Below, in pieces: positions 1-21,696 of a DNA stretch of 26,634 bases. Source of the DNA: a virus (Duplodnaviria > Heunggongvirae > Uroviricota > Caudoviricetes). A program made the position numbers and the translations under genes. The notes under the pieces were generated by a model that was not told the DNA's origin, searched no databases, and saw nothing but the letters and a program-made list of their open reading frames with translations. Position 1 is the first letter of the stretch, and every line of letters begins with the position of its first letter. Where the stretch lies: positions 1-26,634 of the IMG/VR virus record IMGVR_UViG_638341087_000020, one strand, 5' to 3'.

Positions 1-436
1 TCAAAACATGTAAAGCCTTGCAAGCCATTGCGAGGCCTTATGTGTCTCAGTTTTGTCCCACCTTGTATTACGACTTGCATAGCCAATGAAGATAAACGTG
101 ACGACAAACGGCGCAGCGGTCTTCTTTTCCTTTATACTTTCCCCACCCAGCATGCATACCTTCTACCATAACTGTAGTGAATGTCTGTTATGGGCGAAGA
201 GCGGAAAAAGCATACTGAGATCGCCCGGAATATGTCCCATACTTTTGATGAGCTAATTGTGTACCTCAAGGTGGATGTCGAGGCTTAACCTCGTAGTTAT
301 CATCTGCGCGTACCTTTTCAAACAGTTTGTTATCGCTAGCAAATAACATCTAAGGCTTCAGGGCCAATAGATAGATATTGACTAAGCTAAATAGTTTGAT
401 TACTCTTCGAAAATTGATTAAATAAATTTTAATTGG

Positions 437-1225
437 ATGGTAAACATGGAAAACAAAAAAAGTTGCGTTTATTGTAAAAGCACAACAAACTTAACTAAAG
501 AACATATTTTCCCTTCAGCAATAATTAAAAGTTTTAATGTTGAACTTTTATCGATGACTGATAAGAGTGACTACCATTTTAAAGGCGATCCAGTTATTGG
601 GGATGTATGCGCTGAGTGTAATAATGGAATACTGTCGCAACTAGATGCTGATTTCGTAACTTGTTTTAAAAATCAGATGCTAACACCTTTAAAACCCGGA
701 AATGAAATAACATTTGAATATGAATATGATTTATTATTACGTGAACTTCTAAAGATATCATATAATTCAGCGAGGGCATCAAATGGTGGTTATAATGCCA
801 GAGCCATTTTAGAAAAATACATACCATTCATAATCACTGGCAATAAAAACAAAAATGTAGATAGTATAATTCTTTCCCTTCTAATTGTAACTTCTGCAAA
901 TATGGTTAATCTGGAAACTGGTAAACATGAAGAGCCTTTAGAACCATATCTATTAAGAAGCGCATCGATTGGTGGTTTAAACCTCAACCCTAACAATTAT
1001 ATTGTTAGGATGGTTGCATTTAATAGCTTTTGGTTTTTCTTGTTAATTCCAAAGAGGCCAGTTACATCCAAAGTGAAAAAAGAATTTTGGGATGAATTTA
1101 AAAGAAAAAATCATCTGCATGGAGTTTTGTTAAAAAGAAACAACACGTCAATAAAGATCACAAAAGATAAAACGACATATTTGCATCCTGACTTAATAGA
1201 AAAGATGTGGCGAAAAATAAAGTAG
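437..1225 (+). CDS. HNH-nuclease-domain protein (N-terminal HNH motif, about 190-aa C-terminal region of unknown function); AT-rich cargo gene
   Basis: 262-aa ORF. Translation shows C10-x2-C13, E22-H23 and C58-x2-C61-N62, the arrangement of an HNH/His-Me finger nuclease. Visibly AT-rich, Lys/Asn/Ile-rich coding unlike neighbouring phage genes. GGATGG precedes the second ATG (446), which may be the true start. Confidence 0.6.
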   Translation: MVNMENKKSCVYCKSTTNLTKEHIFPSAIIKSFNVELLSMTDKSDYHFKGDPVIGDVCAECNNGILSQLDADFVTCFKNQMLTPLKPGNEITFEYEYDLLLRELLKISYNSARASNGGYNARAILEKYIPFIITGNKNKNVDSIILSLLIVTSANMVNLETGKHEEPLEPYLLRSASIGGLNLNPNNYIVRMVAFNSFWFFLLIPKRPVTSKVKKEFWDEFKRKNHLHGVLLKRNNTSIKITKDKTTYLHPDLIEKMWRKIK

Positions 1226-1578
1226 AACAAATTTTCCAGTTGACAATACCAAAAATAATTAATGGGGACTAGGTTAAATGACGCAGTGGAACAAACTCAC
1301 CAGAGAAGAAAATTAATGGTATTAATGTTCAATGTATTCATTACTGTAACCTAGCCCCTACTAATTTATTCACTATATTGCTGAGTATGTCCGCATCTGG
1401 CACATAGCAGCCCTAGAGATAGGAGCACACAGTCATAGATGGTCGGTGGGAGGTAGTGAAAATCCTCTCATACAATAAATACGTAAAATCGATAACGGCC
1501 GGAAATCATTCAATTCCCGCACTATCGAACGTTCACCAGCCAACCGCAGCACGTTCTTGCATACGACGTGCTACGGTT

Positions 1579-2133
1579 TCATTTATCTCCGACCGGAAAC
1601 TTCTTATACAGTGTCGATATACCAACATCATAGATGATCGCCACCTTCTGGCGAGGAACGCCTGATGCAATTAATCGCCCGGCCTGCGCCCATTGTTCTG
1701 GTGTAAGTTTGGGACGACGTCCACCAATTCGTCCCTGTGCGCGAGCAGCTTCCAGTCCAGCTTTTGTTCGTTCAACAATCAGTTCTCGTTCCATTTCAGC
1801 CAGGGCACCCATGACATGAAAAAAGAAACGGCCCATTGGGGTACTGGTATCAATACTGTCAGTCAGGCTTCGGAAATTCACGCCACGCTGGCGCAACTCT
1901 TCTATCAGCGTAACAAGATGCCGCATACTGCGCCCTAACCTGTCCAGCTTCCAGACAACCAGAGTGTCACCTGCCGATAATGTCCTGAGCAGTTTTTTCA
2001 GTCCGGGCCTTTCGGACTTCGTACCGCTTATCTTGTCTTCAAAAATCAGTTCACATCCTACACAGTTCAACGCATTACGTTGTAGATCGGTGTTCTGGTC
2101 ATTTGTTGATACGCGTACATAGCCAATAAGCAT
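1579..2133 (-). CDS. pin: Serine-recombinase DNA invertase, Pin/Gin/Hin family
   Basis: ORF-track frame trimmed to the internal ATG at 2133 (MLIGYVRVSTNDQ...), with AGGGAG 7 nt upstream. N-terminal catalytic motif YVRVST..Q and C-terminal helix-turn-helix (GVPRQKVAIIYDVGISTLYK) are typical of this family. Lies directly beside an invertible tail-fibre segment. Confidence 0.9.
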   Translation of the reverse strand: MLIGYVRVSTNDQNTDLQRNALNCVGCELIFEDKISGTKSERPGLKKLLRTLSAGDTLVVWKLDRLGRSMRHLVTLIEELRQRGVNFRSLTDSIDTSTPMGRFFFHVMGALAEMERELIVERTKAGLEAARAQGRIGGRRPKLTPEQWAQAGRLIASGVPRQKVAIIYDVGISTLYKKFPVGDK

Positions 2134-2187: not shown

Positions 2188-2213
2188 TTTTCATAAACGT
2201 TGGTTTGGGAGAA
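2188..2213. repeat. Invertase crossover site, left (pix/gix/hix-like 26-bp site)
   Basis: TTTTCATAAACGTTGGTTTGGGAGAA; its reverse complement matches the site at 4067-4092 at 21 of 26 positions. Imperfect dyad around a central TT, with AAAC..GGTTT half-sites as in hix/gix sites. Confidence 0.75.
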
Positions 2214-2711
2214 GGTTCGGCATTACCCGTTGGCGTGCCTGTTCCGTGGCCTTCCGCCACTCCGCCAACAGGCTGGCTGAAATGCAACGGTGCCGCTTTT
2301 TCTGCTGAAGAATACCCGGAACTGGCAAAGGCTTATCCGACAAATAAATTGCCTGATTTACGTGGTGAGTTTATTCGTGGCTGGGATGACGGGCGTGGAG
2401 TGGATAGCGGTCGTACTTTATTAACGAATCAAGAGCATGCAGTAATTTCTCATAATCATGGAATACCTACAAAAGTGGGGTCAGTTACTAATATCCCGTA
2501 TGGAATAGAACAGGTTATATCTGATGAAACCATTTTTTCATCAGCAAAAACAGTTGGTGTGGATTACTGGTCTAACAGTGAGCGAGTTTTTACTTATACC
2601 ACTGGTGGAAGAAATGGTGCTGAATCAGTGAGTTCACCTGATGCCTCCTCTTTAATTAAAGAAACCAGACCACGGAACCTGGCATTTGCGTATATCGTGA
2701 GGGCTGCATAA
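2202..2711 (+). CDS. Alternative tail-fibre C-terminal (receptor-binding) cassette, silent in the present orientation; no start of its own
   Basis: The frame is open from the left crossover site and reads ..NVGLGEGSALPVGVPVPWPSATPPTGW.., in the same phase relative to GGTTTGGGAGAA as the expressed fibre. Inversion would fuse it to the constant N-terminus. The ATG at 2160 in the ORF track is probably fortuitous. Confidence 0.6.
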   Translation, partial: GLGEGSALPVGVPVPWPSATPPTGWLKCNGAAFSAEEYPELAKAYPTNKLPDLRGEFIRGWDDGRGVDSGRTLLTNQEHAVISHNHGIPTKVGSVTNIPYGIEQVISDETIFSSAKTVGVDYWSNSERVFTYTTGGRNGAESVSSPDASSLIKETRPRNLAFAYIVRAA

Positions 2712-3313
2712 TGGATTACGCTGTATTAAATAACGAATTTATCGCCACCCAAGCAGGAAATATTACGGTTTATAACTATGATGGTGAAACACGGGAATAT
2801 ATTTTCACATCAACTGAATATCTTGCTGTGGGTGTCGGCATTCCGGCATGTTCCTGTTTAGATGCTCCTGGCTCATACAAAACTGGGTATGCAATCTGCC
2901 GTTCTGCAGATTTTAACTCATGGGAATATGTGCCAGACCATCGTGGTGAAATCGTCTTTAGCACAGAAACAGGAGAATCAAAAGAAATCAAAGCTCCGGG
3001 TGATTACCCTGAAAATACAACCACTATCGCCCCTTTATCTCCATACGATAAATGGGATGGTGAGAAATGGGTAACCGATACTGAGGCACAGCATAGCGCC
3101 GCAGTAGACGCGGCAGAAGCACAGCGCCAGTCACTGATTGATGCTGCAATGGCTTCCATCAGTCTGATTCAGCTGAAATTACAGGCCGGACGGAAACTGA
3201 CGCAGGCAGAAACAACCCAGCTTAACGCTGTGCTGGATTACATTGACGCGGTGACGGCAACAGATACCAGCACCGCGCCGAATGTCATCTGGCCTGAACT
3301 GCCGGAGGCGTAG
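2711..3313 (+). CDS. Tail-fibre assembly chaperone (Tfa), alternative cassette copy
   Basis: 200-aa ORF starting in a TAATG overlap with the preceding cassette. C-terminus (..LDYIDAVTATDTSTAPNVIWPELP) carries the conserved Tfa C-terminal motif also seen in the 3285-3725 copy. Confidence 0.7.
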   Translation: MDYAVLNNEFIATQAGNITVYNYDGETREYIFTSTEYLAVGVGIPACSCLDAPGSYKTGYAICRSADFNSWEYVPDHRGEIVFSTETGESKEIKAPGDYPENTTTIAPLSPYDKWDGEKWVTDTEAQHSAAVDAAEAQRQSLIDAAMASISLIQLKLQAGRKLTQAETTQLNAVLDYIDAVTATDTSTAPNVIWPELPEA

Positions 3314-3725
3314 GCCATTCAATATCTGGAGCACTGGAGGGATCAACCAGTTCCAGTGCGTCCAGATAATCCAGCCATAAATTATATTGCGCCAGTTCCT
3401 CACCTTTCAGACGACCAATAGCTGCTTTACCTGGCCATTGCCTGTTATTCATGTGCTCATTGGCAGTATCTATGCGCCGCTGACGCTCGTATTCTGCCAT
3501 CTTTATCAGTTCTTCAGGTGCCAGTGGCGGAATATCACTCCATACGGGATAACCATCATCACCCGCAATCCTCATTTTTCCCTCCGGTGGCTTCTGAAAT
3601 GCAGAAAAAGTTTCTTCATCAACCTCCACGCCTTTTTCTGGCCATAACCCCACGGATTCATAATGTAATTTCAAAGCCAACGGATAGAAGGCGTTAGTTT
3701 TTGCATCATAAATATATTTGTTCAT
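3285..3725 (-). CDS. Tail-fibre assembly chaperone (Tfa), expressed-orientation copy
   Basis: 146-aa ORF immediately downstream of the tail-fibre gene. C-terminal motif ..LDYLDALELVDPSSAPDIEWP. Converges on and overlaps the other Tfa copy by 29 bp. Confidence 0.8.
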   Translation of the reverse strand: MNKYIYDAKTNAFYPLALKLHYESVGLWPEKGVEVDEETFSAFQKPPEGKMRIAGDDGYPVWSDIPPLAPEELIKMAEYERQRRIDTANEHMNNRQWPGKAAIGRLKGEELAQYNLWLDYLDALELVDPSSAPDIEWPTPPAVQAR

Positions 3726-3727
3726 TT

Positions 3728-4369
3728 TTATTTCCCTATTGCAATCCAGTTAGCGCCAGCACCCGTTCCGCCAGTACGAGAACTCATTAAATAAAATGCA
3801 AGTAGTCCGCCTCCTGCCGGAGTTGTCGCAAAGGCAGGGCAATCTGTCGCACCGTTAATTGCACTGTCAAAAGACGTGGCAATACGATAACCAGATGTAA
3901 AAGGAATCGGGAAGTTAACAGTTGTTGGATAGCCGATTGGCCCTGCAATACTGACGCCAAACTGTATGATTGTACCATCCGGAAATTTCATCCAGCCTGG
4001 CCCCGACGTGAAGCTAGCCATATCCGAGATCTGATTTACCCCGGTTCCAACCTCCCGTTTTGCCGCTTCTCCCAAACCAAGGTTTTCGAGAGCCGTTTTC
4101 ACCGTGCCGTCCGATTTGATATCGCCAAACGGATTTTTGCGGCTTAACAGTAGCGCCCGAAGCGCGGTAAGCAACTGGTCGTGCCGCGCCTTCTCCAGGC
4201 TGGCACCGGATGCCTCCACCACGCTGCAAAGTTCCTCCTGCAACATGTCAAAGTAGTCATCATCCAGATCGGTGGCAGGCGTGCCTGTCTGGGGGTTACC
4301 ACGGGTAAAACCGTTCTTACCCGCGCCGAACTTATCCTTTTGCGCGGTTTTCGTGTCTATACGATGCAT
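3728..4369 (-). CDS. Tail-fibre protein (constant N-terminus plus currently selected variable C-terminus)
   Basis: 213-aa ORF with GGAG 6 nt upstream of the ATG. N-terminus [22 protein letters not shown].. resembles side-tail-fibre N-termini of Mu/P2/e14-type phages. The crossover site lies at about residues 93-101. Confidence 0.8.
4067..4092. repeat. Invertase crossover site, right (pix/gix/hix-like 26-bp site) inside the tail-fibre gene
   Basis: TTCTCCCAAACCAAGGTTTTCGAGAG, inverted relative to 2188-2213. Lies in the tail-fibre frame at the conserved ...[10 protein letters not shown]... junction. Confidence 0.75.
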
Positions 4370-18995: not shown

Positions 18996-20729
18996 TTAAA
19001 GCGAGCGGATCCCATAGGACTCAATGTGGTCAGACAGCGTGTCTTCTTTCTCGTACAGCATGGCTCTGCCAACCGCCATAATCAGCGCAACTGCACCGTC
19101 AATTTTGTTTTCCGCCTGCTCTTTGACGGGTTTCACCACATCATCGTTACCCGGAATGGTTTTGCCGACCACATTGCCGATACACCAGGTCATGATGGGA
19201 TTGCCATCATGATGAAAGCGCCCCGATTCAATTGCCGCTTCCAGCTCTTTCATCGGGTCGGACATGTTGGTGTAGTTCTGAATGATAGTGACGGGATTCA
19301 GGTCTTCATCAGCAAGGTCATGTGACAACCCGGTCGCCCCGAAGGGGTCGATGGGTGACTCACTGACCGGGCTGATTTTGTTCGCCGCTTTGGCCTCCTC
19401 GAGGATGTAGCGATAATCCACCTCCGCACCATCGGTAACGGTCAGAACGCCCATTTCCACCCATTTCTGAAAGCGTTCGGCTGTCCGGCGATCTTCATTT
19501 TTCTCGACGCTGTACACCGTGTCATACGGTACCCAGAAGCGCGGAGCCACACTGTAGTAATGCGTTTTACCGTCAATCTCGCGGGTATAAAGTCGCGCCA
19601 TGCTGTTCATATCCAGCTTACGCGCCAGGTCAAAGGCCAGAATGCACGGCTGCCCCTCGAACTGCTCAAGGGTCAGTGATTTATCCTCGCAGCTCTGCCA
19701 GCTCACCAGGTTGAAATACGCCGAACGCGCCGACACCCAGATATTGAGGTGTTTTGTTTTAAAGACGTTTGCCAGACGGGCGTTATTTTTCGCACGCTGC
19801 TGCTGACTTAACAAAAATTCGCGATAAACCGACACGCCAATATTTGGATTGGCTTTTTCCAGCACCTGCGGGTCGGTCCAGTCATCGCCTTCGTCAACGG
19901 TATAGATGATCCCGAACAGTTCATCGTTGGGTACCGAACCGTTGAGCATCTCGATAACTTCCCGCCGCTTGTCGTAGCACGGCCCCTCAATGTTGTACCC
20001 GGCGGTGGTGATGGCCCACATCAGTGGCTGACGTCGCGCGCCCATCCCGGTAAGCATCGTGGTATAAAGCGCATCGGTGGCGTGCTCGTGATATTCATCC
20101 ACCACGGCACAGTGGGGTGATGAACCATCACCGGGGTTACCGATCAGCGGTTCAAACCGCGCGCCATCCTCCGGACGGTTCATGTTTGAGGCGTTAACCT
20201 CAATCCCGAACGCTTCCGTCAGCATGGGTGTGCGTTTACACATCAGTCGCGCCGGGCGAAAGACTTCCCACGCCTGTTTCTCTGTCGTGGCACCGGAATA
20301 CACTTCCGCGCCAAACTCGTTATCACAGGCAAAACAATACAGGGCAACACCGGCAGAGATTGCCGATTTGCCGTTCTTACGGGGGATTTCGGTATACACC
20401 TCCCTGAAGCGGCGCAGCCGGGAGCCTTTATTGACCCAGCCAAACGCACAGCAGATCACAAAGAGCTGCCACGGTTCCAGCGTGATGGGCATCCTCTTGA
20501 ATGCCCACTCCCCCTTGGTGTGTGGCAACAGCTGAATAAATTTCGCGGCCCGTTCAGCCAGGTCCTTGTCGAAGCGGTAACGAAACGACTTACTTTTTTC
20601 CGCCATCAGGTCATCAAGATGGCGCTGGCAGGCCTGAATCACAAACTGGCAGGCCACAATCTTTCCGCGCACGACATCACGGGCATACTGATTGGCAGCA
20701 TTTACGTTGGGGTAAGATTTCCGGCTCAT
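18996..20729 (-). CDS. Terminase large subunit
   Basis: 577-aa ORF with an N-terminal ATPase region (..[14 protein letters not shown].. Walker A-like) and C-terminal nuclease region. Its ATG overlaps the TerS stop as ATGA, implying translational coupling. Confidence 0.9.
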
Positions 20730-21220
20730 GATTCGATGATTTTCAGAAACGGGTTAGTGGCTTTCTTCTGCCCCGCCAGGCCAATCAGACGCTGGCGGCT
20801 GCTGGGGTCGAGTCCGAGCATTGCCCCCGTGCTGCTCATCTCGGACTCCTGTTCTTTCTTGGCGGTCAGCTCCGGATTTTTGACCATGCCACCCATTGCA
20901 CCGGTGATGGTGTTGCCCTGTCTGGCAATATTTTTCACGGCACGCCGCCAGAACTCGTAGGCCACGCACCACCGCTCAAGCACCGCGAGGTCAGTCACGC
21001 ACAGCAGGCCCTGACCGCAGAGTTCTTTGGTTGTCAGTTGCCACATGATCGTGGCGAGAGGGAGATCTTCTTCAGCGAACCACTCCGGTGGCTCAACACC
21101 TTTGATGGGCGTAAAAACAGGTTCATCTTTATTCAGGGCTCGCTTGCCGGGGTTTCCGGCCAGCGCCTTGCGCGCCGTTGGCTTGGGGCGACGCCCGGAA
21201 CGCCCCGCCGTTCCAGCCAT
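20726..21220 (-). CDS. Terminase small subunit (P27-family-like)
   Basis: Frame trimmed to the ATG at 21220 ([14 protein letters not shown]..), which has AGGAG 8 nt upstream. Basic N-terminus; immediately upstream of TerL. Confidence 0.7.
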
Positions 21221-21270
21221 ATGCGGCACTCCTGGTTAAATTTCATTTTTCGCGGGTATAAAAAAACGAT

Positions 21271-21345: not shown

Positions 21346-21696
21346 TCACTTAAGCCGTTCACGGGCCGTCTTCGCCTTATGACACGGCCAGCACAGACTC
21401 TGCAGATTACTGTCAGCATCAGTGCCGCCATGTGCTTTAGGGATGATGTGGTCAACGGTTTTCGCTTCACGCGCCACACCAGCACGCAGACATAACAGAC
21501 ACAGGCCTTTGTCACGCTTCAGGACACGCACCCGGATACCGTCCCACTTCGAACCATAACCACGCTGATGGCGGGACTGGCCCGGCTTGTATTGCTTCCA
21601 GCCTTCACTTTTGTGGCTTTCGCAATAGCCTGACGGGTCAGTCGTGGTATGGCGGCAACCGCGGACGCGGCAGGCTTTTGGTGTTCGTGGTGGCAT
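21346..21696 (-). CDS. HNH endonuclease (packaging-associated, HK97 gp74-like)
   Basis: 116-aa ORF with Cys-rich zinc motifs and an HNH core (..DHIIPKAHGGTDADSNLQSLCWPCHKAKT..), immediately upstream of the TerS/TerL genes. Confidence 0.85.
   Translation of the reverse strand: MPPRTPKACRVRGCRHTTTDPSGYCESHKSEGWKQYKPGQSRHQRGYGSKWDGIRVRVLKRDKGLCLLCLRAGVAREAKTVDHIIPKAHGGTDADSNLQSLCWPCHKAKTARERLK

What the first reader, a model, noticed from the sequence alone, without database searches (positions are those of the whole stretch)
437..1225. AT-rich HNH-domain cargo gene at the prophage terminus beside the Pin invertase: candidate single-gene restriction/defence module
Seen in sequence: a 262-aa ORF with a complete HNH motif in its first 65 residues (C10-x2-C13, E22-H23, C58-x2-C61-N62) and about 190 further residues with no motif I recognise. 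Its AT-rich composition and its position outside the structural operon, distal to the invertase, mark it as cargo. Established knowledge: in E. coli K-12 e14 the equivalent slot next to pinE holds mcrA, an HNH-family modification-dependent restriction enzyme, and prophage termini are recurrent sites for anti-phage genes. Inference: this protein is not McrA-like in architecture (HNH is N-terminal, not C-terminal) and may be an uncharacterised nuclease-based defence or exclusion factor.
Basis: partly seen in the sequence, partly recalled or inferred. Interest (0 to 1): 0.7.

Follow-up and report, generated by a model that had tools for sequence, protein, structure and literature searches.

The report
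Stand-alone HNH nuclease prophage cargo gene
An AT-rich, self-contained gene for an uncharacterised HNH-type nuclease occupies the first gene slot at the end of a prophage, a slot that holds proven anti-phage genes such as McrA in related prophages, so it is a good but untested candidate for a new single-gene phage-defence family.

Summary
It carries an invariant CxxC...EH...CxxCN HNH core. Its ~185-aa C-terminal domain matches no Pfam family and no solved or viral structure.

The gene (31% GC against 53% for the prophage) lies inside the att-bounded prophage, next to pin. It belongs to a discrete ~1.1-kb cassette with its own conserved upstream region. This cassette or its homologs turn up in unrelated settings:
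- other e14-like prophages, a P2-like prophage and lambdoid prophage ends;
- a Vibrio integron cassette;
- defence islands and isolated chromosomal sites.

No partner gene is conserved across 58-85 loci. In E. coli the same slot alternatively holds mcrA, PD-T4-3, type II R-M or AbiL; this gene is in only 14 of 5,426 genomes. dN/dS is 0.11-0.23. It is not the packaging HNH (the prophage has its own), not McrA-like, and shows no homing-endonuclease features.

Most likely it is a stand-alone nuclease defence module. Neither the defence function nor how it distinguishes self from foreign DNA has been tested. It matches no PADLOC model and no name in the literature I could search.

The parts
446..1225 (+). 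Coding sequence of the cargo protein (259 aa plus stop).
   Evidence: ORF. Start fixed by the alignment of five cassette copies (TTG in relatives at 446, SD upstream) and by the RefSeq annotation WP_000428315.1. dN/dS 0.11-0.23.
464..646 (+). HNH (beta-beta-alpha-metal, His-Me finger) core with a Cys4 zinc ribbon: C7, C10, E19-H20, P23, D53-V54-C55, C58-N59-N60, L63, D67. A ~30-aa insertion separates the two halves.
   Evidence: Pfam HNH_5: 23.9 bits for this protein, 38 of 43 members, one member at 28.2 bits above the cut-off. The residues are at least 97% conserved in 200 diverse members. In the AF2 model the strand at residues 16-20 ends in H20, and a strand at 50-55 is followed by a helix at 56-77.
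671..1222 (+). Family-specific C-terminal alpha/beta domain (about residues 76-259) with conserved basic and polar residues: R99, K103, N107, R110, R171, R188, F197.
740..775 (+). Signature helix LLRxLLKISYNSARA. R99, K103, N107 and R110 lie on one helical face (i, i+4, i+8, i+11). Inferred to be a nucleic-acid-binding or interface surface.
   Evidence: Invariant block. Helix at residues 94-110 in the AF2 model. The role is inference.
435..440 (+). Shine-Dalgarno-like GGATGG, 5 nt upstream of the ATG at 446 (AGGTGA or GGGTGA in relatives).
   Evidence: Sequence and alignment A2.
378..406 (+). Promoter-like element, TTGACT-17 nt-TACTCT, conserved in five cassette copies. It lies in a leader that diverges 2-2.5 times more slowly than synonymous sites.
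   Evidence: Alignments A2 and A3; divergence figures. It was not picked up by the consensus promoter scan, so it is only putative.
207..1385 (.). Variable cargo cassette. ECOR29 shares only window 1-206 and 1386-2214 and has a different gene in between. The Hafnia P2-like prophage shares 191-1259 (81%) and the E. kobei prophage shares 315-1232.
   Evidence: blastn of the window against fetched loci. The cassette is present in 14 of 5,426 E. coli genomes.
1..206 (.). Conserved prophage-terminal sequence between the att site (off-window, about 66 bp to the left by homology) and the cargo slot.
   Evidence: 94.7% identity to ECOR29. The ECOR29 att is a 48-bp copy of the tRNA-Thr 3' half at L100 709-756, and window position 1 maps to L100 822.
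1257..1366 (.). Imperfect inverted repeat (20-nt arms, 85% complementary, 70-nt spacer) at the right edge of the cassette, between the convergent cargo gene and pin. Role unknown.
   Evidence: the repeat finder pair I1.
1579..2133 (-). pin (pinE-type serine invertase), the conserved anchor that flanks the cargo slot. The ORF lister extends it to 2169.
   Evidence: ORF. 90-96% DNA identity to annotated pinE genes.

Best explanation
The gene encodes a stand-alone, metal-dependent HNH (His-Me finger) DNA nuclease. A Cys4 zinc-ribbon catalytic core (general base H20 with E19, metal ligand N59) is fused into one compact globule with a family-specific ~185-aa domain that carries a conserved basic surface. 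That domain most likely recognises the target nucleic acid or holds the nuclease in check.

The gene travels as a self-sufficient ~1.1-kb cassette with its own promoter region. It is carried as cargo in the polymorphic slot between pin and the att end of an e14-like, thrW-integrated prophage, and is expressed from the lysogen independently of the late operon.

Its most likely role is single-gene defence of the lysogen against other phages or mobile DNA. It has no methyltransferase, antitoxin or ATPase partner. It must therefore tell self from non-self on its own, either by recognising a feature of foreign DNA (modified bases or a replication/packaging structure, in the manner of a type IV enzyme) or by staying inactive until infection.

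Shown: the gene, the motif, the conservation, the cassette mobility, the slot polymorphism and the lack of a partner. Inferred: nuclease activity, defence function and the mode of discrimination.
For: HNH core:
- HNH_5 hits in 38 of 43 members; one member is above the gathering cut-off.
- C7, C10, E19, H20, C55, C58 and N59 are at least 97% conserved in 200 members.
- The predicted strand-strand-helix arrangement fits the HNH fold.

Functional gene: dN/dS 0.11-0.23.

Cargo and hotspot:
- GC is 31% against 53% and the cassette has discrete borders.
- It lies inside the att-bounded prophage.
- The slot alternatively holds mcrA, PD-T4-3 at E 4.7e-140 plus type II R-M, AbiL, and DUF4365 or other unknown genes.
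- Genome counts for the occupants are 838, 340, 30, 14 and 1.

Independent mobile or defence contexts of homologs:
- A P2-like intra-tail accessory locus beside DUF4238. DUF4238 is a validated P2-hotspot defence (PMC9122126), and intra-tail hotspots in P2 are documented (PMC13586616).
- The last gene of a lambdoid prophage at icd in Proteus, and between tail fibre and integrase in Morganella.
- The order pin, umuDC, this gene, yedK in Enterobacter.
- A single-gene attC-flanked integron cassette among Mrr, ParE/Phd, Shedu and TIR cassettes.
- Next to Gabija plus a Schlafen-like gene and next to AbiE plus a ResIII helicase.

Stand-alone:
- No neighbour family recurs in more than 4 of 58 loci.
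- No conserved small ORF within 700 bp in 85 loci.
Against: - No experiment exists and no PADLOC model matches.
- The Pfam score of this member is below threshold and covers only the first half of the motif.
- Several homologs sit among housekeeping genes with no visible defence neighbours.
- Hotspot residence is only guilt by association: the same slots also carry non-defence cargo such as umuDC.
- The way the protein would spare the host chromosome is unknown.
Confidence: 0.55

Rival explanations
1. Abortive-infection or toxin-type nuclease. The protein is kept inactive in the lysogen, by its own C-terminal domain or by tight repression of the AT-rich cassette. A phage cue switches it on, and it then degrades host and phage DNA indiscriminately, killing the infected cell.
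For: - There is no methyltransferase or immunity gene, so some form of latency is needed.
- Slot-mates include the Abi system AbiL.
- The compact single globule (pTM 0.91) has the catalytic core packed against the extra domain.
- The conserved leader suggests regulated expression.
- A decayed copy exists in K. oxytoca, as expected for a potentially toxic gene.
Against: - No sensor-type domain (STAND, ATPase, nucleotide-binding) is recognisable.
- No partner is present to gate the nuclease.
- Single-domain nucleases without a partner in this same slot (McrA; PD-T4-3) are not established Abi effectors. That point rests on my own knowledge for McrA, which is a direct type IV enzyme.
Confidence: 0.2
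2. Selfish free-standing homing-type endonuclease cassette. The nuclease cuts cassette-free target sites and spreads by repair, with no benefit to the host.
For: - HNH is a classic homing-endonuclease fold (PMC5714182).
- The gene moves as a discrete ~1.1-kb unit between unrelated backbones.
- It often sits alone between housekeeping genes.
Against: - No copy occurs in 50,697 phage genome records.
- The flanks at different insertion sites are unrelated, so there is no conserved homing target.
- No NUMOD, IENR or AP2-type DNA-binding module is present.
- One copy is an attC-bounded integron cassette, which moves by integrase rather than by homing.
- The gene is rare in E. coli (14 of 5,426 genomes) although thousands of potential recipient prophages exist.
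Confidence: 0.1
3. A phage housekeeping nuclease, such as a terminase-associated packaging HNH or a replication/recombination nuclease, needed by the prophage itself.
For: - HNH proteins are common phage packaging cofactors.
- The gene lies within the att-bounded prophage.
Against: - The prophage has its own canonical 116-aa packaging HNH (PF01844, E 5.6e-15) beside the small terminase at 21346-21696; ECOR29 has the same arrangement.
- The cargo gene is absent from nearly all related prophages.
- It has foreign base composition.
- It lies outside the structural operon and is convergent with it.
Confidence: 0.03
4. Not a nuclease at all. On this view it is a zinc-ribbon DNA- or RNA-binding regulator, or an anti-defence protein, in which the HNH-like motif is structural only.
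For: - The Pfam match is weak and partial.
- No fold-level confirmation of a beta-beta-alpha-metal site was obtained.
- The conserved basic helix would suit a binding protein.
Against: - The catalytic pair E19-H20 and N59 are 97-100% conserved in 200 members from at least 8 phyla. That level is not expected if only the zinc ligands mattered.
- 38 of 43 members hit HNH_5 and no competing family appears.
Confidence: 0.07

Closest known systems
EcoKMcrA (type IV modification-dependent HNH restriction enzyme of prophage e14)
   Same: - It occupies the same genomic slot, as a single gene between pinE and the att end of an e14-type prophage.
- It has an HNH-superfamily catalytic domain.
- It has no methyltransferase partner.
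   Different: - The domain order is reversed: McrA has an N-terminal 5mC-binding domain and a C-terminal HNH.
- There is no detectable profile similarity (hhalign probability 1.2%).
- The non-catalytic domain here has no known relative, and modification dependence is untested.
PD-T4-3 (single-gene GIY-YIG defence, Vassallo et al. 2022, PMC9519451)
   Same: - It is an alternative occupant of the very same pin-adjacent slot, present in 838 E. coli genomes.
- It is of similar size (257 aa).
- It is a stand-alone nuclease-domain protein with no partner.
   Different: - The nuclease superfamily differs (GIY-YIG against HNH) and there is no sequence relationship.
- PD-T4-3 has an experimentally shown phenotype. 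This gene has none.
Septu PtuB / retron-associated HNH (HNH_5-type nucleases gated by an ABC ATPase)
   Same: - It has the same Pfam-level HNH flavour. PF14279 is used to annotate these partners in PMC11464382.
- Three family members show marginal PADLOC PtuB hits (E about 0.03).
- It is of similar small size.
   Different: - No PtuA-like ATPase or any other conserved neighbour is present.
- The PtuB models do not match this protein.
- The C-terminal domain is different.
Modular single-polypeptide type IV enzymes (SRA/EVE/YTH-HNH enzymes, GmrSD, END nucleases; PMC12191111)
   Same: The logic is the same: a nuclease domain plus one extra domain in a single methylase-less protein, found in defence islands or mobile elements.
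   Different: - The two parts form one compact globule rather than two beads on a string (pTM 0.91).
His-Me finger 'Group 8' of Jablonska et al. 2017 (PF14279 only; 158 bacterial proteins, no viral ones, no described function)
   Same: It is an uncharacterised, bacteria-only, HNH_5-only group, which fits this family's profile.
   Different: Identity of the two sets could not be checked, because the accession lists are in a supplement I did not open. The family here is far larger: 1,849 clusters at 50% identity.

Membership tests
HNH / His-Me finger superfamily (Pfam HNH_5, PF14279) | Catalytic His at the end of the first beta strand, preceded by an acidic residue | tested here: met
   E19-H20 are 97-99% conserved in 200 members. 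In the AF2 model the strand at residues 16-20 ends at H20.
HNH / His-Me finger superfamily (Pfam HNH_5, PF14279) | Metal-binding Asn or His at the start of the helix that follows the second strand | tested here: met
   C58-N59 is 100% conserved and is followed by a helix at residues 56-77. Assigning N59 as the metal ligand is inference by analogy with the CxxC(H/N) arrangement of HNH domains.
HNH / His-Me finger superfamily (Pfam HNH_5, PF14279) | Two CxxC pairs forming a structural zinc site around the beta hairpin | tested here: met
   C7, C10, C55 and C58 are 97-100% conserved.
HNH / His-Me finger superfamily (Pfam HNH_5, PF14279) | Score above the curated Pfam gathering threshold | tested here: inconclusive
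   This protein scores 23.9 bits against a 27.5 cut-off, and only the first half of the motif aligns. 38 of 43 members hit HNH_5 at E 0.1 or better, and member P0172 scores 28.2 bits.
HNH / His-Me finger superfamily (Pfam HNH_5, PF14279) | Three-dimensional beta-beta-alpha-metal fold superposable on solved HNH nucleases | tested here: inconclusive
   [not shown]
HNH / His-Me finger superfamily (Pfam HNH_5, PF14279) | Divalent-metal-dependent nuclease activity | not testable with these tools
   This needs a biochemical assay with H20A and N59A controls.
McrA-type / type IV modification-dependent restriction enzymes | Recognisable modified-base reader domain (McrA N-terminal domain, SRA, EVE, YTH, winged helix and similar) fused to the nuclease | tested here: not met
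   hhalign against EcoKMcrA gives probability 1.2%. No reader domain was found by Pfam or by fold search.
McrA-type / type IV modification-dependent restriction enzymes | Cleavage that depends on DNA modification, with no cognate methyltransferase | not testable with these tools
   Absence of a conserved methyltransferase neighbour was shown. Dependence on modification needs plating or transformation assays.
Septu (PtuAB) | HNH protein PtuB encoded next to the ABC-type ATPase PtuA | tested here: not met
   No conserved neighbour in 58 loci. PADLOC PtuB models do not hit this protein and hit only 3 of 43 members, at E 0.028 or weaker. The AAA ATPase next to the gene in F467 is AbiLi, an independent insertion on the opposite strand.
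Free-standing HNH homing endonucleases | Residence in phage genomes, introns or inteins next to a conserved target gene, with NUMOD/IENR/AP2-type DNA-binding modules | tested here: not met
   No tblastn hit in 50,697 phage records. No such Pfam domains are present. The flanking genes differ at every insertion site.
Terminase-associated packaging HNH (HK97 gp74 type) | Small (about 100-120 aa) HNH protein encoded beside the terminase genes and conserved with the packaging module | tested here: not met
   That role is filled by window 21346-21696 (-), 116 aa, PF01844 at E 5.6e-15, next to Terminase_4. The cargo gene is 20 kb away and absent from sister prophages.
Type II restriction-modification | Adjacent cognate DNA methyltransferase | tested here: not met
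   No recurrent neighbour family, and none is present in the window next to the gene.
Toxin-antitoxin (protein antitoxin) | Small conserved adjacent antitoxin gene | tested here: not met
   No ORF of 30-160 aa within 700 bp is conserved beyond near-identical syntenic loci (85 loci). An RNA antitoxin is not excluded, but the leader shows no conserved fold.
Catalogued anti-phage defence systems (PADLOC-DB v2.0.0) | Match to a curated defence-protein model | tested here: not met
   0 hits for this protein. Members give only noise-level hits. DefenseFinder and newer catalogues could not be run.
Integron gene cassette (applies to the Vibrio parahaemolyticus homolog) | Single ORF bounded by attC recombination sites within a same-orientation cassette array | tested here: met
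   VCR-like repeats of about 129 nt (10 copies) bracket the gene at L079 5537-5666 and 6454-6588.

The most novel reading that the evidence does not exclude
This is the founding, still unnamed member of a large family (at least 1,849 clusters at 50% identity, at least 8 phyla) of single-polypeptide defence nucleases. In this reading an HNH core is fused to a previously unseen fold that acts as a new kind of sensor for foreign DNA, for example a new modified-base or DNA-structure reader. The family is spread as a minimal cassette by prophage hotspots, integrons and defence islands.
Probability: 0.4. Interest if true: 0.6.

Novelty: new variant of a known kind. Interest (0 to 1): 0.45.

Why it matters
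If the prediction holds, three things would follow.
- A compact (259 aa), partner-less nuclease family would join the catalogue of bacterial immune genes.
- A second domain with no known structural relative would be offered as a possible new DNA-feature sensor.
- The pin-to-att slot of e14-like prophages would be documented as a defence hotspot comparable to those of P2 and P4. Its alleles (McrA, PD-T4-3, R-M, AbiL, this gene and others still unknown) could be mined systematically.

The practical value is a short, easily cloned candidate with clear point-mutant controls. The limitation is that hundreds of such candidates are now predicted routinely. Without a phenotype, this one is a well-supported lead and not a discovery.

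Tried and rejected
- **Sequence searches against the PDB.** The family profile gave 0 hits at E up to 10. The N-terminal 78 aa gave only spurious CxxCH heme motifs.
- **C-terminal extensions.** The ~430-aa family variants were scanned for clues, but the extension has no Pfam domain.
- **RNA element in the leader.** RNAalifold gave -5.3 kcal/mol with no covariation, and Rfam gave only a sub-threshold CssrB fragment near pin. I rejected a structured RNA.
- **Small upstream ORF.** Frames are broken by indels between cassette copies and no small ORF is conserved. Rejected.
- **Terminal repeats of the cassette.** Only one imperfect inverted repeat lies at the right edge, with no flanking direct or inverted pair. 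There is no evidence of transposon-like ends.
- **Literature.** No paper mentions WP_000428315. END nucleases have a different architecture. Neither the DefensePredictor paper, the P2/P4 hotspot papers, the integron-cassette screen nor the metagenomic selection paper describes an HNH gene of this type. Brenes & Laub 2025 (Cell Host Microbe) on E. coli prophage defences is not held, so prior naming there cannot be excluded.
- **AAA ATPase next to the gene in F467.** I considered it as a possible partner. I rejected that because it is AbiLi/AbiLii on the opposite strand and is absent from the window.
Full report
**1. Observation.**
It lies in a 32-35% GC stretch at the left end of a window that otherwise averages about 53% GC (gene 31.3% GC, GC3 25.5%; rest of the window 52.8%).

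The start codon needs correcting. In an alignment of five cassette copies from different genera, the position of the window's second ATG (446) is a TTG start in all relatives. The first ATG (437) falls inside a Shine-Dalgarno-like GGATGG/AGGTGA block 5 nt upstream. RefSeq also annotates the 259-aa form (WP_000428315.1). The gene is therefore 446..1225, and the motif is C7-x2-C10, E19-H20, C55-x2-C58-N59.

**2. Is it a real gene?**
Yes. A word-indexed search found 87 relatives, nearly all 250-270 aa and aligned end to end, all called 'hypothetical'. An exhaustive profile search found 1,849 clusters at 50% identity with E up to 1e-3, and 445 with E up to 1e-30. A scan of species-representative genomes found 53 loci. 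These span Gamma-, Beta- and Alphaproteobacteria, Bacteroidota, Cyanobacteria, Bacillota, Myxococcota, Planctomycetota, Bdellovibrionota and Desulfobacterota. dN/dS against six orthologs is 0.11-0.23. One copy, in K. oxytoca, is frameshifted.

**3. What the protein is.**
- **Profile libraries.** Pfam gives only HNH_5 (PF14279). The score is below threshold for this protein (23.9 against 27.5 bits) and only the first half of the motif aligns. Across the family, 38 of 43 members hit HNH_5 with no competing family, and one long member passes the cut-off (28.2 bits). PADLOC and NCBIfam give nothing. PHROGs gives only a weak hit to an unknown-function family.
- **Conservation.** In 200 diverse members the zinc ligands C7, C10, C55 and C58, the catalytic pair E19-H20, and N59 are 97-100% conserved. 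So are D53, V54, L63 and D67. A second set lies in the C-terminal part: R99, K103, N107, R110 (one face of a helix, the 'LLRxLLKISYNSARA' signature), R171, R188 and F197.
- **Structure.** AlphaFold2 with the family alignment gives a confident single globule (pLDDT 90.7, pTM 0.91). A strand at residues 16-20 ends in H20, and a strand at 50-55 is followed by a helix at 56-77, as expected for a beta-beta-alpha-metal site with a ~30-aa insertion. The remainder is an alpha/beta domain.
- **Conclusion.** The HNH assignment rests on sequence motif, family-wide Pfam hits and predicted secondary structure. It does not rest on a three-dimensional superposition. The C-terminal domain is unassigned.

**4. 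Where it sits.**
The window is a myovirus-type prophage. It has an HK97-type head, a P27-type small terminase, Mu-like baseplate genes, a Pin-invertible tail-fibre segment and a Q antiterminator.

ECOR29 carries the same backbone integrated at tRNA-Thr (thrW). The integrase is at one end and pin at the other. The 48-bp att duplication lies at L100 709-756, and window position 1 maps to L100 822. The window therefore begins about 66 bp inside the att-bounded element, and the cargo slot is the first gene position from that end. The cargo gene is convergent with pin.

**5. The cassette and the slot.**
- **Borders.** ECOR29 shares only window 1-206 and 1386-2214 and has a different 280-aa gene in between. 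A Hafnia P2-like prophage shares window 191-1259 at 81% identity, and an E. kobei prophage shares 315-1232. This defines a ~1.1-kb cassette consisting of the gene plus about 250 bp of upstream DNA.
- **Leader.** The upstream DNA contains a conserved TTGACT-17-TACNCT element and the SD. It diverges 2-2.5 times more slowly than synonymous sites (JC 0.26-0.30 against dS 0.59-0.78). It has no conserved RNA fold.
- **Frequency.** The cassette occurs in 14 of 5,426 complete E. coli genomes, all at 99.7% identity. In the one of these that I examined (F467), an AbiL pair is inserted between the cassette and pin; the other 13 lose similarity to the window at the same point just before pin. The pin region itself matches in 4,228 genomes.
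- **Other occupants of the slot.** K-12 e14 and strain 10 have mcrA. O103:H2, GPEC1210 and 2021CK-01361 have a GIY-YIG protein that is PD-T4-3 (E 4.7e-140), and the first two also carry a type II R-M pair. GF3-3 has an unknown 208-aa gene plus DUF4365.
- **Genome counts.** PD-T4-3 is in 838 genomes, mcrA in 340, the GF3-3 gene in 30, this gene in 14 and the ECOR29 gene in 1.
- **Conclusion.** The slot is a polymorphic hotspot whose identified alleles are validated defence genes.

**6. Contexts of homologs.**
- Hafnia: inside a P2-like prophage between tail genes S and V, next to a DUF4238 gene. A DUF4238 protein from a P2 hotspot protects against T7 (PMC9122126), and intra-tail hotspots in P2-like phages are documented (PMC13586616).
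- E. kobei and E. hormaechei: the order is pin, umuDC, this gene, host yedK.
- Morganella: between the tail fibre and the integrase of a lambdoid prophage.
- Proteus: the last gene of a lambdoid prophage integrated at icd.
- V. parahaemolyticus: a single-gene integron cassette bounded by VCR-like attC repeats, in an array that also carries Mrr, ParE/Phd and Shedu cassettes. A second Vibrio copy lies next to a TIR protein.
- Halopseudomonas: beside Gabija, a Schlafen-like gene and transposases.
- Thioalkalivibrio: with an integrase, AbiE and a ResIII helicase.
- P. aeruginosa: beside IS110 and prophage genes.
- Shewanella and Aeromonas: isolated between housekeeping genes.
- IMG/VR: 18 loci, two of them 100% identical to the window's protein and lying at the extreme end of the viral contig.
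- INPHARED: no copy in 50,697 phage records. PLSDB: five plasmid records.

**7. Partner test.**
I clustered all ORFs of at least 70 aa within 5 kb in 58 loci. No neighbour family occurs in more than four loci, and those few vary in position and strand. They are a mix of housekeeping and mobile or defence genes. A second test used ORFs of 30-160 aa within 700 bp in 85 loci. It found nothing conserved beyond near-identical syntenic loci. The protein therefore works without a dedicated methyltransferase, ATPase or protein antitoxin.

**8. Mechanism.**
Shown:
- a conserved, selected, partner-less protein with an intact HNH catalytic set and a conserved basic surface;
- carriage as a self-contained cassette in hotspots that otherwise hold defence genes.

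Inferred:
- It is an active metal-dependent nuclease used by the lysogen against other phages or mobile DNA.
- Because nothing protects the host chromosome in trans, discrimination must be intrinsic. One option is recognition of a foreign DNA feature by the C-terminal domain (type IV-like direct restriction), which I favour slightly because McrA occupies the same slot and the protein is compact. The other is latency until infection (abortive infection).

I put the defence reading at about 0.55-0.6, and the specific type IV-like mode at about 0.3.

**9. Rivals.**
- **Packaging HNH.** Excluded. The prophage has its own 116-aa PF01844 HNH next to the small terminase at 21346-21696.
- **Homing endonuclease.** Unlikely. 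There are no phage-genome copies, the flanks at different sites are unrelated, no homing-type DNA-binding modules are present, and one copy is mobilised as an integron cassette.
- **Classical R-M, Septu or toxin-antitoxin.** These fail their partner requirement.
- **McrA family.** Membership fails (hhalign probability 1.2%).
- **Non-catalytic zinc-ribbon protein.** Unlikely, given 97-100% conservation of E19, H20 and N59.

**10. Novelty.**
The protein is unnamed in every source, absent from PADLOC v2, and not found in the literature I could search. One directly relevant paper, Brenes & Laub 2025, is not held. The 2017 His-Me finger survey lists an uncharacterised, bacteria-only, HNH_5-only 'Group 8' that may overlap this family.

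The kind of thing is familiar: a single-gene nuclease carried as prophage cargo in a defence hotspot. What is new is the family and its second domain. I therefore rate it a new variant of a known kind with moderate interest (0.45). It is a clean, cheap candidate to test, but it has no phenotype yet and many similar candidates exist.

Noticed in passing
window 21346-21696 (-), beside 20726-21229 (-) and 18996-20729 (-): The prophage has a second, canonical HNH gene: 116 aa, PF01844 at E 5.6e-15. It lies directly upstream of the P27-type small terminase and TerL, which is the usual packaging-cofactor arrangement.
   Followed up: yes
window ~2195-4066: The Pin-invertible tail-fibre segment is in the opposite orientation to F467 and ECOR29. 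Window 2195-2392 and 2691-3464 match those loci in reverse, while 4066-4500 matches forward. The switch has been captured in its other state.
   Followed up: partly
window 1474-1566 (overlaps 1545-1601, -): A ~100-nt element just downstream of pin recurs near ykgJ in ECOR29 (L002 825-917, 87%) and at unannotated sites in many E. coli genomes. It overlaps a sub-threshold Rfam CssrB (Shigella sRNA) match, 37 bits against a gathering score of 76.
   Followed up: partly
L001 13836-15640 (-), E. coli F467: In F467 an AbiL system (AbiLi E 2.5e-66, AbiLii E 1.5e-9) is inserted between the HNH cassette and pin, so the slot can stack several cassettes. The other 13 cassette-bearing E. coli genomes lose similarity to the window at the same point but were not annotated here.
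   Followed up: yes
L002 8617-9459 (ECOR29); L017 4180-4806 and 2360-3355 (GF3-3): Other occupants of the same slot are also uncharacterised. One is a 280-aa protein with a weak restriction-endonuclease-like PADLOC match, found in 1 genome. Another is a 208-aa protein with no match, found in 30 genomes. A third is a DUF4365 protein. They are further candidate defence genes.
   Followed up: partly
window 1257-1276 and 1347-1366: An imperfect 20-nt inverted repeat (85% complementary, 70-nt spacer) sits exactly where similarity to the Hafnia cassette ends, between the convergent cargo gene and pin. Its function is unknown; it could be a terminator or a recombination scar.
   Followed up: no
window 316-445: The leader upstream of the gene is conserved across genera (JC 0.26-0.30) more than synonymous sites are (dS 0.59-0.78). 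It shows no conserved RNA structure or ORF. It is probably a promoter/operator region.
   Followed up: partly
L023 8001-8790 (Klebsiella oxytoca NBRC 105695): This 85%-identical copy is frameshifted, with the first stop at codon 32. It is an example of decay of the cassette.
   Followed up: partly
proteins P0172, P0178, P0194, P0201, P0210, P0213, P0229, P0231, P0234: A subset of family members is 411-439 aa long. They carry a ~170-aa C-terminal extension with no Pfam match.
   Followed up: partly
L079 3500-10600 (Vibrio parahaemolyticus): This is a superintegron array with 10 VCR-like attC repeats. Its cassettes include Mrr_cat, ParE/PhdYeFM, acetyltransferases and a Shedu SduA_C protein alongside the HNH homolog.
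   Followed up: yes
L009/L010 1315-1872 and L008 10845-11402: In Halopseudomonas-type loci a 185-aa protein with a weak DUF6650 match always follows the HNH homolog on the same strand. It is lineage-specific and not conserved elsewhere.
   Followed up: partly
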